From: Moniliella sp. 'wahieum'
Taxonomy: Eukaryota
Assembly (NCBI GenBank): GCA_003971905.1
Contig: RSEE01000072.1
Location: forward strand, 310,001-366,223
Direction: 5' to 3'
DNA length: 56,223 bases
The position numbers and the translations under genes were made by a program. The notes beneath the pieces were generated by a model. The model was not told the origin of the DNA. It saw nothing but the letters and a program-made list of their open reading frames with translations, and searched no databases. Below are positions 31,484-34,924 of the stretch, in pieces (position 1 is the stretch's first letter; the number at the start of each line of letters is the position of its first letter).

Positions 31484-34400
31484 ATGGCCGCCTCGCTGCT
31501 GTATGCCTCGGCCGGCATCGCCCGCGCCGCGCGCGTCGTCGACTCGGCCGTCGTCAGCATCCATGGCGATGCCGCGGCGGACACGCAACGCAGACGCAGA
31601 CGCTCCCCGTGCTCGTCGCCGCCTCGTCCCACTCCGTCCTGACCTCCGAGCGGCCTGGCCCGACGGGCGTCCGCGTCGCCTCCCTCCTCGTCCAGCCCGC
31701 CCCGGCCGAGGTGACCACCATCCGCCTCCTGGCCCACGGCGACCAGGGCCATGCGTATGCGCTGGCCGTCGGCGACGCGCACGGCGCCCCCATCTCTTTG
31801 TCCCGCAGCGCCGCCCGGCAACCCCGCCTGCCGGCCTGCTTCTCAGCCCGCACGCCCGCCTCGCCTGGACCCCCCCTTGACCCTGCCCCACCGCCACCAC
31901 GGCTCCGTCGCGGCGATCGGGTCGCTGACGGCTACCTCATCTGCGTCGGGCGTTGACTCGGTCGTTGTCACAGCCGGGTCGGAGGGGACGATTGCCATTA
32001 CCACCCTCGCTGCTGCCCCGCTGGTGCAGGTGGAGCACACGCAGCTCCTCACCTTGCCGCCCCAAGCGCTGCCGCTTGCGCTTGGCCTCGCCCGATTCCC
32101 GGCACCAACCGACTACTTGGCGGTCGGCACTACGACCAAGAACATTTACCTCTATGCTCAGCAGCACGGGGTCGGTGCTGGGCACGACACGTTTCAGCGC
32201 GTTGCTACGCTTGAGGGCCACGACGACTGGGTCCGCGCCTTGGACTTTTGCACCATTCCGTCGTCTGACAACACGAGCAAGAACGAGTTGATGTTGGCTA
32301 CCGCTTCACAGGATGCCTGCATTCGTCTTTGGAAGATCACCCTCTCTTCGCGCCCCCTGGACGAGACGCACAAGGAGACCGACGCGTTCGAATCGCTTGC
32401 CCAGCGGATTGAGCAGGACCGCGCCGATGAGCGAGGCATGACCACCAAGGCACACCCGTTTCCCCTATCGGGCTGCCGCAAGCCACAGTGGTGACCGTGC
32501 GCTTTGATGCACTGTTGCTGGGGCATGAGGGGTGGGTGCAAGATGTGCGATGGGCGTTCCCTCGGCCCAGGGGGCCGGAACACGCCTCCTCTCCGCCGGC
32601 GTGGACGGCAGTGCGATCGTCTGGGCCCGACCACGGTCGCGCGCGGCGAGCAACAGCTCTGGCTCTCCTCGGCCCGACTGGGCGAGGTGGGCGGGGTGGC
32701 TACCGGAGGCTGGTACGGCGCTGCCTGGCTCCCAGGCCTGCCAGGGAGGAAGCGCAGATCCTTACCCATGCGTGGAATGGAGCTGCTCACCTGTTCGTTC
32801 GCCAAGGCGAGCGCTGGGCCGCCGCCGCAGCTCGCGTAGGCGGCCATCAGGACGCCGTTCGCGACCTTGCCTGGGCACGCACGGACAATGGTTCCTCACC
32901 GTTGGCCACGACCGCACGACGCGCCTTCATGCCGTGGTGCAGGATGACGAGTGGGTTCAGCTGGCGCGGCCTCAGGTCCATGGATACGCCATGACGGGCG
33001 TCTCCTTCTACGACCCGTCAGGACTCGGCTTTGTCAGCGGCGCTGAGAAAAGGTGGTGCGGGCGTTCGAGGCACCGCAGGGCTTTGTTGAGCTGGCCCAG
33101 TCACTTGTTCCTCGCGCCGAGAGAAAGGCAGCGCTCGTGGTGGAGATGGGAGGCGAAGCTGTACCCAACCCCCATATCCTAAAGGACACCCTGTTGGCGT
33201 CTATGGCCGATTTGGACCTCACTCTTCCCTATGGACCTTTCTCCCCCTCGGCTTCGCTTACTGTTCTTGTCGTCTCGCCCTTATGGGACTCGCTCGCTCA
33301 GTTGTCATTTACTGCGGTCGAGACGTTTGTCGCGGGCGTTATGCCCAAGTTTGGGCCGAAGCGGTGAAACACGATCGTCTGGATATGCAGATCGATGTGC
33401 TCCTCGTCCGTCCCAGTGTCCCTTGCGCCTCTTCTGTCCCACCCCCATTTCCAGGGCTCAATCTGTTTGTTTCGGGTCAAAGTCCGCTCCTTCTCGATCA
33501 AGTTCCCCTGCCAACGGCCACTCGTCTTCCTCATGCTGTCCCCGAACCGAGGAGAAGAGCACGGCAAGCTTTCCATCGTACAACTCGGTCGCCTTGGGTG
33601 GCACGTTTGACCACTTGCATGTGGGCCACAAAGTGCTGCTGAGCATGCTGCTCTGCTGGCCCACCAACGCGTGGTGGTAGGCGTGACGAGTATGTATCTT
33701 CTTTATTTTTCTTGTTTGGATGGCCACGAAACTGACTGTCTGGACCAGCCGACGCGTTGCTCAGCAAGAAGAAACATGCGGACCAACTCAAGTCCCTCTC
33801 GGAGCGGATCGGGGATGTACGCGACTTTCTCGCCTTGTTCCGTGCACCCTGGGGGCAGGTGCAACTGGACATTGTGCCGCTGTCGGACGTATGCGGACCA
33901 GCCGGGAGCGAGGAGGACTTGCAAGCTCTGGTGCTCACCGAAGAAACCAAAGCGGGCGGAGAACGATTGCCGAGACGCGCCGCCAGAACGGGTTGGCCGG
34001 GTTGGACACGTGGACGATCAACGTGCTGGTTCAACGGGGGAAACTGTGGTGGGTTCCGACCCGCCGAGCTGGCCGCGAGCAAGATTGGGTCGACGGCCTT
34101 GCGCGCCTGGTATGCGCGTCCGGTGGAACAGCGCGCCGAGGGCGCCAGTTCGGCCCCCTTGGCTCTATCGACCAAAGCTTCTTCGGTCTCGGTAGGCCGG
34201 CGACCGGCGTGCCAAGTGAGGCGGCACTGACTGCGACTCTCTGGCTCGAGACGGACAAGTTGTATGGCCATGGCGACCCGTTGCTGGCCGTCGCGTATGG
34301 CGGCGACTACTGTGCGTCCAGTGCTTCCACCCATTCTTCCCAAGGCGCCCAGATCTGGCTGCATGACCGGCGGGCCCACTGGGCCCCTGCGGCCCAGCTG

Positions 34401-34924
34401 CTCGGCCACGCGTTGGGCGCTGCGCGCATCCGATGGAACCCATCCAACCAACTGCTCCTCAGCGTCGGACGCGATCGCATGTGGCTCCTCCACCCCGCCC
34501 GCCCGCCCGAGCACAGACTCCCACCCTCCCCGGCCGACGTCTTGCCGCTGGCCAAGCAGGAGCGCGCACACACCAAGGCCATCCGCGACGCCGCGTGGCT
34601 GTCGGACCAGGACTTTGTCACGGTCGGCGGGACAAACGGGCCAAGGTGTGGACCGGCACGGTGGGCCAGGCCAGCCGGACACTCGCGTTGGAAGCCCCCG
34701 GGAGCGCGGTCGCCAGCACCCGCGCCCGCGGCACCACCCTCCTCGCCATCGGCATGGACAATGGCGCGGTGGTGGTCTATGCCGGCGAGGAGGCGCGCGT
34801 GGTGGTGCAGATGCAGCTGCACGCGGCGGCAGTGAGTGCACTGGCGTTCCGGCCGGGCGGGTGCGAGCTTGTGTCGGCCGGCGCCGACGGCGGGGTGGTG
34901 GTGCTGCGGCTGCAGGTGCCATAG
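31484..34924 (+). CDS. ELP2: Elongator subunit Elp2 (WD40) carrying an internal phosphopantetheine adenylyltransferase domain
   Basis: Elp2 motifs in order: LYASAG, LEGHDDWVRALDF, LATASQDACIRLWKI, FDALLLGHEGWV, GGHQDAVRDLAW, TTRLHA, WVQLARPQVHGY, FVSGAEK.VRAFEAP, [insert], GASSAPLALSTK, LWLETDKLYGHG, LLSVGRDR, AHTKAIRDAAW. Confidence 0.92.
33110..34125 (+). other. Inserted Cab4/CoaD-type nucleotidyltransferase (PPAT) domain inside ELP2
   Basis: YNSVALGGTFDHLHVGHKVLLS (HxGH), VVGVT|TDALLSKKKHA..L.S..ER...VRDFL, LSDVCGPAG...DLQALVLTEET..GG, R..NGL..LD...I.V and KIGSTALR (KxSST-like). Intron at 33690-33748. Confidence 0.88.

What the first reader, a model, noticed from the sequence alone, without database searches (positions are those of the whole stretch)
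31484..34924. CoA-biosynthesis enzyme (PPAT/Cab4) inserted in frame inside Elongator subunit Elp2
Seen in sequence: roughly 300 codons (33110-34125) with GGTFDHLHVGHK, D.CGP, ALV.TEET..GG and KIGST motifs lie between two Elp2 motifs that are normally close together (VRAFEAP and GA..P.L.LS.K). Both junctions are open and in frame. ORF 33053-33367 runs from Elp2 into the insert, and ORF 33757-34230 runs from the insert back into Elp2, so this looks like neither a neighbouring gene nor an intron-nested gene. The insert also includes a region resembling the N-terminal extension of fungal Cab4 (VYAQVW.EA...DR..M..DVLL). Established: Elp2 is a double WD40 scaffold, Elp3 uses acetyl-CoA for wobble-U34 carboxymethylation, and PPAT catalyses the penultimate step of CoA synthesis. 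Inference: the CoA pathway may be tethered to Elongator, allowing channelling or metabolic sensing that couples CoA status to tRNA modification, and ELP2 could be essential if this is the only PPAT. I cannot tell whether relatives share the fusion in databases, and I know of no functional description of it.
Basis: partly seen in the sequence, partly recalled or inferred. Interest (0 to 1): 0.88.

Follow-up and report, generated by a model that had tools for sequence, protein, structure and literature searches.

The report
CoA enzyme inserted inside Elp2
This fungal gene encodes the Elongator scaffold protein Elp2 with a complete coenzyme-A-pathway enzyme (PPAT/Cab4) built into one of its loops; many smut-type and skin-yeast fungi share this arrangement, but I found no study of it.

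Summary
On the + strand, 31484-34924 encodes Elp2. A whole Cab4-type phosphopantetheine adenylyltransferase (N-terminal extension plus catalytic domain, about 33110-34140) is inserted in frame between the VRAFEAP and LSTKA motifs, which lie about 16 residues apart in human ELP2. The insert is not peculiar to this genome. Sixty of 85 database relatives carry it at the same point, in three classes of Ustilaginomycotina (Ustilago, Sporisorium, Malassezia, Tilletiaria and others). In 54 aligned fused proteins the PPAT catalytic motifs are invariant. Partial predicted proteins from other genomes span both junctions. A Malassezia homologue folds confidently as an intact two-propeller Elp2 with an extra alpha/beta module, and that module's best solved match is an archaeal PPAT. 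Only Tilletia has separate Elp2 and Cab4 proteins.

There is one caveat. In this window the gene is broken by 13-17 frame shifts, nearly all of the missing-base type, with no in-frame stops. Neighbouring genes are split the same way, so I read these as assembly errors and not gene decay.

The proposed functional coupling of CoA supply to tRNA modification is untested. Six literature searches found no description of the fusion. It is a real, conserved and apparently unstudied bifunctional architecture.

The parts
31484..34924 (+). Whole Elp2-Cab4 fusion gene, ATG to TAG. It has one intron and 13-17 single-base frame breaks in this assembly.
   Evidence: Sequence. Protein-to-DNA alignments with five guide proteins.
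31484..33109 (+). Elp2 N part: the first WD40 propeller and the first blades of the second, ending ...EKVVRAFEAPQGFVELAQSLV.
   Evidence: WD40 Pfam matches. Aligns to P0003 residues 4-~590, and through P0003 to human ELP2 up to residue 473. 34 of 37 columns invariant in 54 fused homologues are kept.
33059..33061 (+). Arg codon of V-R-A-F. It is equivalent to human ELP2 R462, which a paper places at the Elp2/Elp3 radical-SAM interface, and lies 17 residues before the insert.
   Evidence: Residue count on the alignment. Passage of PMC8113450. Coordinates.
33110..33590 (+). N-side linker and the Cab4 N-terminal extension (LTVLVVSPLW, YAQVW, QIDVLLV). It is predicted to be a second Rossmann-like alpha/beta domain.
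   Evidence: Alignment with fused and free Cab4 proteins. Model of the P0003 insert and its Foldseek hits.
33597..34122 (+). PPAT catalytic domain: GGTFDHLHVGHK (the HxGH motif), DVCGPAG, LTEET and KIGSTALR.
   Evidence: NCBIfam NF001985 matches the two window ORF pieces (E 2e-5 and 1e-6). 30 of 31 invariant insert columns are kept and the remaining one falls at a frame break. Coordinates.
33690..33748 (+). The only intron (59 nt, GTATGT...CTGAC...CAG, phase 1). It lies inside the PPAT domain, after VVGVT.
   Evidence: Sequence. All five guides place an intron here. Several relatives' partial predicted proteins end at this point (P0003 residue ~796).
34123..34140 (+). Short C-side linker (VEQRAE) between the PPAT domain and Elp2.
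   Evidence: Alignment and coordinates.
34141..34924 (+). Elp2 C part: the remaining blades of the second propeller, from GASSAPLALSTKA to the stop.
   Evidence: WD40 matches. Aligns to P0003 934-1223, which corresponds to human ELP2 from residue 490. Only 21 of 29 invariant columns are kept.

Best explanation
The locus is one gene for a bifunctional protein. It is Elp2, the two-propeller WD40 scaffold of Elongator, with a complete Cab4-type PPAT inserted into the connection between two blades of the second propeller.

Shown:
- The insertion is ancient and conserved. It sits at the same point in Ustilaginomycetes, Malasseziomycetes and most Exobasidiomycetes.
- It derives from the resident basidiomycete CAB4 lineage.
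- It keeps all PPAT catalytic motifs, and the Elp2 fold is predicted to stay intact.
- This window's copy is an ordinary, though fast-evolving, member of that family.
- The frame breaks have the signature of consensus errors in the assembly.

Inferred:
- The protein is made as one chain.
- The PPAT module supplies the cell's step-4 CoA activity, probably as the only PPAT.
- The Elp2 part still works in Elongator.
- Whether the covalent link has a function of its own (for example co-localisation with the acetyl-CoA-using Elp3) or is a tolerated fusion is open. I consider a tolerated fusion without channelling the more likely.
For: Architecture in the window:
- Colinear alignment to P0003 and four other fused proteins gives no in-frame stop and one intron.

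Conservation:
- In the exhaustive search with a junction-plus-insert query, 16 hits had E<=1e-30, and 13 of the top 25 are 1042-1387 aa long.
- 14 of 15 long hits carry both WD40 and PF01467.
- 60 of 85 hits cover at least 88% of the junction-insert-junction region. They are named from Tilletiaria, Exobasidium, Violaceomyces, Microstroma, Meira, Kalmanozyma, Sporisorium, Ustilago, Pseudozyma, Testicularia, Ceraceosorus, Jaminaea, Sympodiomycopsis, Parajaminaea and many Malassezia (taxonomy).
- Agaricomycotina Elp2 proteins match only the junction (8-11% of the region).

One reading frame:
- Ten partial predicted proteins from other contigs cross the C junction, five of them both junctions.
- Eight cross only the N junction, and four of these stop at the conserved intron site.
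- No Met is conserved at the start of the insert.

Selection:
- In 54 fused proteins the GGTFDH-H-GHK and K-GS---R columns and many Elp2 columns are invariant.

Family of the insert:
- A PDB profile search gives the archaeal PPAT 3do8 at E 5e-19. The next family scores E 3e-3.
- NF001985 (PPAT) is the best NCBIfam match, and P0020 reaches the curated cut-off at 105 versus 104 bits.
- Foldseek on the insert model gives 3do8 first, with TMt 0.77-0.80.

Fold:
- The AF2 model of P0020 has pLDDT 87.4 and pTM 0.87. The insert lies between strand 512-517 plus helix 520-528 and helix 902-908 plus strand 912-918.
- That model matches solved Elp2 structures with TMt 0.80-0.86.
- The insertion point corresponds to human ELP2 residues 473/490.

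Origin:
- The inserts and the Tilletia Cab4 proteins form one Ustilaginomycotina clade (SH-aLRT 99) inside the basidiomycete Cab4 proteins.

Assembly errors:
- Frame breaks are 12-17 'missing base' against 0-2 'extra base', with no stops.
- The neighbouring OST48 gene is split over three overlapping ORFs in successive frames, shifting in the same direction.
- A homologue-free decoder finds 21 missing-base against 8 extra-base events outside the locus. The reversed-sequence control gives 4 against 3.
Against: - No transcript or protein data were available for any species, so translation as one chain is inferred from reading frames and gene models.
- The gene callers behind the unnamed partial proteins are not stated. 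Reading them as uninterrupted ORFs is my inference.
- Tilletia has separate Elp2 and Cab4 proteins, so the link is not indispensable.
- The window's Elp2 C part has lost 8 of 29 columns that are invariant in 54 relatives, and its N part 3 of 37, while the insert lost none (Fisher p=0.016). This could mean relaxed constraint on Elp2 here.
- In my alignments the frame breaks do not sit in obvious homopolymer runs, so the error mechanism is not identified. Real decay cannot be excluded without reads.
- The models are of homologues (P0020, P0003), not of the window's own protein.
- The word-index searches can miss a second, divergent PPAT.
Confidence: 0.8

Rival explanations
1. Nested or separately expressed gene. 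CAB4 sits inside what is really a long ELP2 intron, or has its own internal promoter and start codon, so two separate proteins are made and the fused gene models are annotation artefacts.
For: - Tilletia is annotated with a free Cab4 (344-364 aa) and an insert-free Elp2 of 921 aa.
- The window has an in-frame Met near the start of the insert (about 33203).
- The insert has lower G+C than the flanks: 0.585 against 0.66-0.73.
- No RNA data were available.
Against: - Both junctions are open and in frame in the window and in 60 of 85 relatives.
- Partial predicted proteins from other contigs cross the junctions, and five cross both.
- No Met is conserved at the insert start, and the linkers are short.
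- By eye I saw no GTRNGT-type donor at the N junction.
- Non-coding flanks would not stay stop-free and in frame across lineages that are only 35-48% identical.
Confidence: 0.07
2. The window's copy is a decaying pseudogene, the frame breaks are real, and a functional copy lies elsewhere in the genome.
For: - There are 13-17 frame breaks in 3.4 kb.
- The Elp2 C part departs from 8 of 29 otherwise invariant columns.
- The window has a long terminal branch of 1.22 against a median of 0.47.
Against: - The breaks are almost all of one kind, and there is no in-frame stop over about 1060 codons.
- 30 of 31 invariant PPAT columns are kept.
- Unrelated neighbours show the same one-directional splitting.
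- The intron keeps GT...AG and a CTGAC branch site.
Confidence: 0.08
3. The insert is a different HxGH nucleotidyltransferase (a cytidylyltransferase, or NMNAT- or FAD-synthetase-like), not a PPAT.
For: Pfam places it only in the broad CTP_transf_like family PF01467. Weak matches to glycerol-3-phosphate and choline-phosphate cytidylyltransferases exist (E 3e-3 to 5e-3).
Against: - PPAT is the best match by about 16 orders of magnitude in the PDB profile search.
- PPAT is the best match in NCBIfam and by fold.
- The nearest free relatives are fungal Cab4-type proteins and the PPAT halves of animal bifunctional CoA synthases.
Confidence: 0.03
4. Chimeric assembly: two unrelated loci were joined by mistake.
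For: The assembly is evidently of low consensus quality.
Against: The same junctions, at the same residues, recur in dozens of independently sequenced fungi.
Confidence: 0.01

Closest known systems
Elongator subunit Elp2 (yeast and human; solved structures 4xfv, 5m2n, 8asv, 8ptx)
   Same: It has the same double seven-bladed WD40 architecture. The model of homologue P0020 matches these chains with TMt 0.80-0.86. Motifs such as ARPQxHGY, ADEKVxRVF and LGLSN(K/R)A are conserved.
   Different: About 340 extra residues sit where human ELP2 has a loop of about 16 residues (473-490). The window's copy also departs from several columns that are otherwise invariant in the C-terminal part.
Fungal Cab4 and the archaeal/eukaryotic-type PPAT (3do8; NCBIfam NF001985)
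   Same: It shares the HxGH and K-x-G/S-S-T-x-x-R motifs, the Rossmann-like fold and the fungal N-terminal extension. The insert groups with basidiomycete Cab4 proteins.
   Different: It is not a free protein of 300-360 aa. It has no start or stop of its own and is flanked on both sides by Elp2 sequence.
Unnamed family of fused Elp2-Cab4 proteins of Ustilaginomycotina (for example P0003 of Tilletiaria anomala and P0020 of Malassezia yamatoensis, annotated as 'Elongator complex protein 2', 'WD40 repeat-like protein' or 'Cytidyltransferase-like domain protein')
   Same: The window has the same insertion point, the same domain order and the same intron site as these proteins. It branches with Tilletiaria (SH-aLRT 94).
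   Different: It is at most about 46% identical to any member. Its C-side linker is shorter, its Elp2 C part is more divergent, and it is frame-broken in this assembly.
Animal bifunctional CoA synthase (COASY: PPAT + dephospho-CoA kinase)
   Same: It contains a PPAT of the same family fused to another protein. COASY PPAT halves were hit at E 1e-23 to 1e-15.
   Different: COASY joins two consecutive steps of one pathway end to end. Here the PPAT is inserted within a non-enzymatic scaffold of an unrelated pathway.
Yeast CoA-synthesizing protein complex (CoA-SPC) and the S. pombe hal3 fusion gene
   Same: Cab4 normally works within a protein assembly with Cab2, Cab3/Hal3/Vhs3 and Cab5 (Olzhausen 2013, as cited in a passage of PMC9604783). 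Fungal CoA-pathway enzymes are known to be fused to unrelated activities: the S. pombe hal3 fusion gene 'encodes three distinct activities'. I saw only that title in the reference list of PMC9604783, and the details are recalled.
   Different: None of these links the CoA pathway to Elongator. The S. pombe precedent shows that such fusions need not imply functional coupling.

Membership tests
Elp2 (Elongator subunit 2) | Two tandem WD40 beta-propellers with the Elp2-specific fold | tested here: met
   Tested on homologue P0020, not on the window's own broken protein. The AF2 model has pLDDT 87.4, and its best Foldseek matches are Elp2 chains with TMt 0.80-0.86. The window aligns colinearly to fused Elp2 proteins.
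Elp2 (Elongator subunit 2) | Best sequence matches are Elp2 orthologues, with conserved Elp2 motifs on both sides of the insert | tested here: met
   For P0003, solved Elp2 structures score E 1e-94 to 1e-75. The window keeps 34 of 37 (N part) and 21 of 29 (C part) of the columns invariant in 54 relatives.
Elp2 (Elongator subunit 2) | Assembles with Elp1 and Elp3 and is needed for wobble-U34 modification | not testable with these tools
   Needs co-purification and tRNA analysis. The only pointer is that the Arg equivalent to human R462, reported at the Elp3 interface (PMC8113450 passage), is invariant in 54 fused proteins and present in the window.
PPAT of the archaeal/eukaryotic type (Cab4, COASY N-half) | HxGH nucleotide-binding motif at the end of the first strand | tested here: met
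   GGTFDHLHVGHK lies at 33597-33632 and is invariant in 54 fused proteins.
PPAT of the archaeal/eukaryotic type (Cab4, COASY N-half) | C-terminal K-x-(G/S)-S-T-x-x-R motif | tested here: met
   KIGSTALR lies at 34081-34104. The K, G, S and R columns are invariant. That this motif is defining is recalled knowledge of the nucleotidyltransferase superfamily.
PPAT of the archaeal/eukaryotic type (Cab4, COASY N-half) | The best profile match is PPAT and not another HxGH family, and it reaches the curated cut-off | tested here: inconclusive
   NF001985 is the best match for all proteins tested. P0020 scores 105 bits against a cut-off of 104 and passes. P0003 scores 83 bits and the window's two ORF pieces 25-29 bits, all below the cut-off. 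The PDB profile search gives PPAT 3do8 at E 5e-19 against E 3e-3 for the next family.
PPAT of the archaeal/eukaryotic type (Cab4, COASY N-half) | Fold of the catalytic domain | tested here: met
   Tested on the P0003 insert. The model has pLDDT 85.9. The top Foldseek hit is 3do8, with TMt 0.77-0.80, rmsd 2.7-4.1 A and 26% identity.
PPAT of the archaeal/eukaryotic type (Cab4, COASY N-half) | Catalyses 4'-phosphopantetheine + ATP -> dephospho-CoA | not testable with these tools
   Needs an enzyme assay or complementation of yeast cab4.
Fused Elp2-Cab4 proteins of Ustilaginomycotina | Cab4 inserted between the ...APxGFVE and ...VPPLGLSN(R/K)A segments of Elp2 | tested here: met
   Alignment of the window's conceptual translation with 20 fused and 4 unfused proteins.
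Fused Elp2-Cab4 proteins of Ustilaginomycotina | Translated as one polypeptide | not testable with these tools
   Only reading frames and gene models were available. No transcript or protein evidence was available.

The most novel reading that the evidence does not exclude
In most of a fungal subphylum, including the model Ustilago and the human skin commensal Malassezia, the penultimate enzyme of CoA synthesis is physically built into Elongator. It sits 17 residues after the Elp2 arginine that contacts the radical-SAM domain of Elp3. On this reading the PPAT module, and possibly the rest of the CoA-synthesizing complex recruited through it, lies next to the acetyl-CoA-consuming active site. 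This would couple local CoA/acetyl-CoA supply, or its sensing, to wobble-uridine tRNA modification, and would make ELP2 an essential gene in these fungi.
Probability: 0.15. Interest if true: 0.8.

Novelty: new variant of a known kind. Interest (0 to 1): 0.6.

Why it matters
- Elongator's catalytic subunit uses acetyl-CoA, and reviews describe it as linking acetyl-CoA metabolism to translation (abstract of PMC7663514, seen in the listing). A covalent union of a CoA-biosynthetic enzyme with an Elongator scaffold, conserved across three fungal classes, is a natural 'Rosetta-stone' hint of such a link.
- It is directly testable in tractable species such as Ustilago maydis and Malassezia.
- It has a practical consequence. 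In these fungi ELP2 probably cannot be deleted without losing an essential CoA step, which would confound Elongator genetics.
- Annotation needs care. Fused proteins are named only 'Elp2', and free Tilletia Cab4 proteins are mislabelled 'Elongator subunit elp2'.
- If the fusion is merely tolerated, it is still a clean example of a whole enzyme inserted into a beta-propeller loop without disrupting the predicted fold.

Tried and rejected
- Pfam on the raw ORF pieces found WD40 only and no PF01467, because the frame breaks fragment the PPAT domain. NCBIfam later matched two of the pieces.
- The first word-index search, with an Elp2 N piece, returned only one relative (P0001) plus one unrelated bacterial WD40 protein. 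The exhaustive search was what revealed the family.
Names came only.
- tblastn HSPs were messy, because the high G+C content produces long spurious same-frame alignments. I replaced them with my own protein-to-DNA dynamic programme.
- The homologue-free frame decoder gave only a modest signal and fragments genes heavily, into 52 and 57 segments. I use it as supporting evidence only.
- The Cab4 tree did not resolve whether Tilletia split before the fusion or lost it afterwards. Holding all fused rows as one clade is not rejected (p-AU 0.72).
- Literature: six searches found nothing on the fusion. The terms were Elp2 + phosphopantetheine adenylyltransferase; Cab4 + Ustilago; Elp2 + cytidylyltransferase; Elongator + Cab4; Elp2 + Ustilago maydis; and adenylyltransferase + WD40 + coenzyme A biosynthesis + fusion. 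The hits were unrelated uses of the words. Subscription-only papers are not covered.
- I looked for a description of the Elp2 loop at the insertion point in PMC5286394 and found none.
- Not done: complex prediction and the protein-atlas search were not used, because the report claims no binding between separate chains.
- Not done: the window's own protein could not be folded, because it reads through only with breaks.
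Full report
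WHAT IS THERE. The window is G+C-rich fungal DNA (about 0.51-0.73 per kb). On the + strand, an ATG at 31484 and a TAG ending at 34924 bound a gene. Its translated pieces read, in order: Elp2 N-terminal sequence, a Cab4/PPAT-like unit, and Elp2 C-terminal sequence.

- VRAFEAP at 33056
- the insert linker from 33110
- YAQVW at 33340
- QIDVLLV at 33388
- GGTFDHLHVGHK at 33597
- DVCGPAG at 33886
- LVLTEET at 33928
- KIGSTALR at 34081
- GASSAPLALSTKA at 34141

The stop-to-stop ORFs 33047-33367 and 33736-34230 do bridge the two junctions.

THE GENE IS FRAME-BROKEN IN THIS ASSEMBLY. Reading the pieces showed frame changes with no room for introns. I wrote a protein-to-DNA dynamic programme that allows frame shifts and GT..AG introns, and ran it with five fused homologues as guides.
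- Every guide gives one intron. The programme places it at 33692-33750. From the sequence it is 33690-33748, with GTATGT, a CTGAC branch site and CAG, in phase 1.
- Every guide gives no in-frame stop and 13-17 frame breaks.
- Of those breaks, 12-17 are of the 'one base missing' kind and 0-2 of the 'one base extra' kind.
- With the closest guide (P0003, Tilletiaria anomala) all 17 are 'missing base', and identity is 46.5% over 1059 matched codons.
- Both junctions fall inside unbroken segments (33047-33328 and 34063-34200).

The same one-directional splitting affects neighbouring genes.
- The OST48 gene (28686-30384, minus strand) has its Pfam matches spread over three overlapping ORFs in successive frames, shifting in the direction expected for missing bases.
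- Other domain matches in the window are truncated in the same way.
- A homologue-free codon decoder finds 21 missing-base against 8 extra-base events outside the locus. A reversed-sequence control gives 4 against 3.

I therefore read the breaks as consensus errors in the assembly and not as gene decay. Only reads can prove this.

IT IS A CONSERVED FAMILY, NOT A ONE-OFF. A first search with an Elp2 N piece found one relative, P0001 (827 aa). That protein itself runs from Elp2 into a Cab4-like sequence.
- An exhaustive HMMER search with the tail of P0001 (junction plus insert) gave 1342 hits at E<=0.001 and 16 at E<=1e-30. Of the top 25, 13 are 1042-1387 aa long and align across the junction.
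- Pfam finds both WD40 and CTP_transf_like (PF01467) in 14 of 15 long hits. The fifteenth, from Meira, still shows the intact motif in the alignment.
- Searching with the junction-insert-junction region of P0003 returned 85 proteins, and 60 of them cover at least 88% of the region.
- The source names place these 60 in Tilletiaria, Exobasidium, Violaceomyces, Microstroma, Meira, Kalmanozyma, Sporisorium, Ustilago, Pseudozyma, Testicularia, Ceraceosorus, Jaminaea, Sympodiomycopsis, Parajaminaea and at least eight Malassezia species. Two names are cut off in the output.
- By NCBI taxonomy, the two fused species I looked up fall in Exobasidiomycetes and Malasseziomycetes; that the Ustilago-type genera belong to Ustilaginomycetes is from recall, showing only that this class lies in the subphylum.
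- Nineteen hits cover only 8-11% of the region, that is, the junction alone. They are Elp2 proteins of about 730-920 aa from Agaricomycotina, Tilletia walkeri and one beetle-labelled record.

ONE READING FRAME.
- In an alignment of the window's conceptual translation with 20 fused and 4 unfused proteins, the insert begins 10-35 residues after APxGFVE. It ends with SK(V/I)GSTAIRxWL and a variable linker before RPxGASVPPLGLSNRA. No Met is conserved at its start.
- Partial predicted proteins from other contigs cross the junctions. P0008, P0015, P0170, P0195 and P0223 span both junctions in one piece.
- Five cross only the C junction (P0073, P0219, P0220, P0221, P0224).
- Eight cross only the N junction. 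P0011, P0013 and P0258 align to P0003 only as far as residue 796, and P0001 to residue 803. This is where the window has its intron, so the intron position appears to be shared.
- The gene callers behind these records are not stated. Reading them as uninterrupted ORFs is my inference.

WHAT THE INSERT IS.
- Its nearest free relatives are Cab4-type proteins of Tilletia (36-45% identical), Agaricomycotina and Pucciniomycotina. Next come the PPAT halves of animal bifunctional CoA synthases and a yeast 'putative pantetheine-phosphate adenylyltransferase'.
- A profile of the P0003 insert plus 30 free Cab4 proteins hits the archaeal PPAT 3do8 at E 5e-19. The next families, glycerol-3-phosphate and choline-phosphate cytidylyltransferases, score E 3e-3 to 5e-3.
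- In NCBIfam the best model is always NF001985, pantetheine-phosphate adenylyltransferase. P0020 reaches the curated cut-off (105 against 104 bits), P0003 does not (83 bits), and the window's two ORF pieces match profile positions 4-25 and 41-110.
- The AF2 model of the P0003 insert (pLDDT 85.9) has 3do8 as its best PDB match, with TMt 0.77-0.80. The following hits are tandem universal-stress proteins and the two-domain ethanolamine-phosphate cytidylyltransferase. This suggests that the fungal N-terminal extension is a second Rossmann-like domain.
- In 54 aligned fused proteins the GGTFDH-H-GHK and K-GS---R columns are invariant.
- The window keeps 30 of the 31 invariant insert columns, and the remaining one falls at a frame break.

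WHERE IT SITS IN ELP2.
- Against solved structures, P0003 residues 435-589 align to human ELP2 324-473, and residues 934-1176 align to 490-753. In yeast Elp2 the alignment resumes at 486. About 345 residues therefore replace a loop of about 16 residues.
- A 54-sequence AF2 model of the Malassezia yamatoensis protein (P0020, 1147 aa) has pLDDT 87.4 and pTM 0.87. It shows the insert as a confident alpha/beta module between strand 512-517 plus helix 520-528 and helix 902-908 plus strand 912-918. This is the connection between two successive blades of the second propeller. Only the C-side linker (872-890) has low confidence.
- The model still matches solved Elp2 chains with TMt 0.80-0.86.
- Counting on the alignment, the Arg of VLRVF is human R462. 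A passage of PMC8113450 places R462 at the interface with the radical-SAM domain of Elp3.
- That Arg is invariant in the 54 fused proteins. In the window it lies 17 residues before the insert.
- I could not compute whether the insert is close to Elp3 in space.

ORIGIN.
- In a Cab4 tree (46 rows, quick IQ-TREE), all the inserts and the free Tilletia Cab4 proteins form one clade (SH-aLRT 99). That clade sits inside the basidiomycete Cab4 proteins, beside Agaricomycotina.
- The window groups with Tilletiaria (94), on a long branch of 1.22 against a median of 0.47.
- The order among Malassezia, Tilletia, Ustilaginomycetes and the other Exobasidiomycetes is unresolved. Holding all fused rows together as one clade is not rejected (p-AU 0.72). 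A single fusion after Tilletia split off, and a later separation in Tilletia, both remain possible.
- Among the 117 shorter hits, the only free Cab4 proteins named from the subphylum are five Tilletia clusters. The fused copy is therefore probably the only PPAT in the fused lineages, within the limits of a word-index search.

HOW IT MOST LIKELY WORKS.
- Shown: one conserved reading frame, intact PPAT motifs, and a predicted intact Elp2 fold.
- Inferred: a single chain that is both the Elongator scaffold and the cell's PPAT.
- For that idea: conservation across three classes; the insertion point near an Elp3-contacting residue; and the fact that Cab4 normally belongs to a multi-enzyme CoA complex (Olzhausen 2013, as cited in a passage of PMC9604783).
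- Against it: Tilletia has the two proteins separate, and fungal CoA enzymes are known to be fused to unrelated activities (the S. pombe hal3 fusion gene; I saw only the reference title, and the details are recalled).
- I put functional coupling at about 15%.

A SIDE OBSERVATION. The window's Elp2 parts have lost 3 of 37 (N) and 8 of 29 (C) columns that are invariant in 54 relatives. No relative, left out in turn, keeps fewer than 93% of such columns, while the window keeps 88% overall. The insert lost none (Fisher p=0.016). In this lineage the PPAT part seems to be under tighter constraint than the Elp2 part.

NOVELTY.
- The architecture is already in public protein sets, usually named simply Elp2.
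- Six full-text searches found no paper that describes it.
- Subscription journals, supplements and curated fungal databases were not covered.
- I rate it a new variant of known kinds. It is real, conserved and unstudied, and its functional meaning is open.

Noticed in passing
whole window; e.g. 28686-30384 (-), 10940-11621 (-), 35095-36014 (+): Genes across the window look split by single missing bases. OST48 domain matches lie in three overlapping ORFs in successive frames. The PDH E1-beta, SHR3, UCH, LIDHydrolase and HSF matches are truncated. A homologue-free decoder finds 21 missing-base against 8 extra-base events outside the Elp2 locus. The assembly probably needs polishing.
   Followed up: partly
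34141-34924 compared with 33597-34122: The window's Elp2 C part departs from 8 of 29 columns that are invariant in 54 fused relatives (for example in the LGLSNR and KLYGHGYE motifs). Its PPAT part departs from none (Fisher p=0.016). This may reflect relaxed constraint on Elongator function in this lineage.
   Followed up: partly
relatives P0026, P0028, P0029, P0027, P0222, P0201 (Tilletia): Tilletia species have a free Cab4 (344-364 aa) and an insert-free Elp2 (921 aa). Two Tilletia horrida Cab4-only proteins are named 'Elongator subunit elp2', apparently by name transfer from fused homologues.
   Followed up: partly
33110-33590; model of P0003 residues 590-935: The N-terminal extension typical of fungal Cab4 is predicted as a confident alpha/beta domain. 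After the PPAT hit, the whole insert resembles tandem universal-stress proteins and the two-domain ethanolamine-phosphate cytidylyltransferase. This suggests a degenerate second nucleotide-binding-like domain.
   Followed up: partly
alignment columns after the PPAT domain in relatives: Ustilaginomycetes and Microstromatales-type relatives carry a basic-rich stretch (runs of R and K) in the C-side linker. It looks like a nuclear-localisation or cleavage signal. It is absent from the window, Tilletiaria and Malassezia.
   Followed up: no
33001-34000: G+C dips to 0.585 over the insert, against 0.66-0.73 in the flanking Elp2 parts.
   Followed up: no
relative P0025 (834 aa): A fused Elp2-Cab4-type protein, 44% identical to the Tilletiaria protein over 71% of the query region, is labelled as coming from the fern Adiantum nelumboides. 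It is probably fungal DNA in a plant assembly.
   Followed up: no
relatives P0198 (1738 aa) and P0199 (787 aa), Pucciniomycotina: These are unusually long PPAT-containing proteins without WD40. One combines PF01467 with DNA-glycosylase and other domains. They may be merged gene models or other fusions.
   Followed up: no
about 35990-36110: A short tandem repeat shows up as a run of a five-residue unit (SRAEQ on one strand, LCSAL on the other) in the ORF translations, just downstream of the SHR3-like gene.
   Followed up: no
30700-31374 (-), 35095-36014 (+), 40918-41514 (-), 53836-54258 (+), 17293-18744 (+): Neighbouring genes by Pfam: an EF-hand protein transcribed divergently from the Elp2 start, an SHR3-type ER chaperone just downstream, Nse1, a Velvet-domain protein and an HSF-type factor. 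None has an obvious CoA or Elongator link.
   Followed up: no
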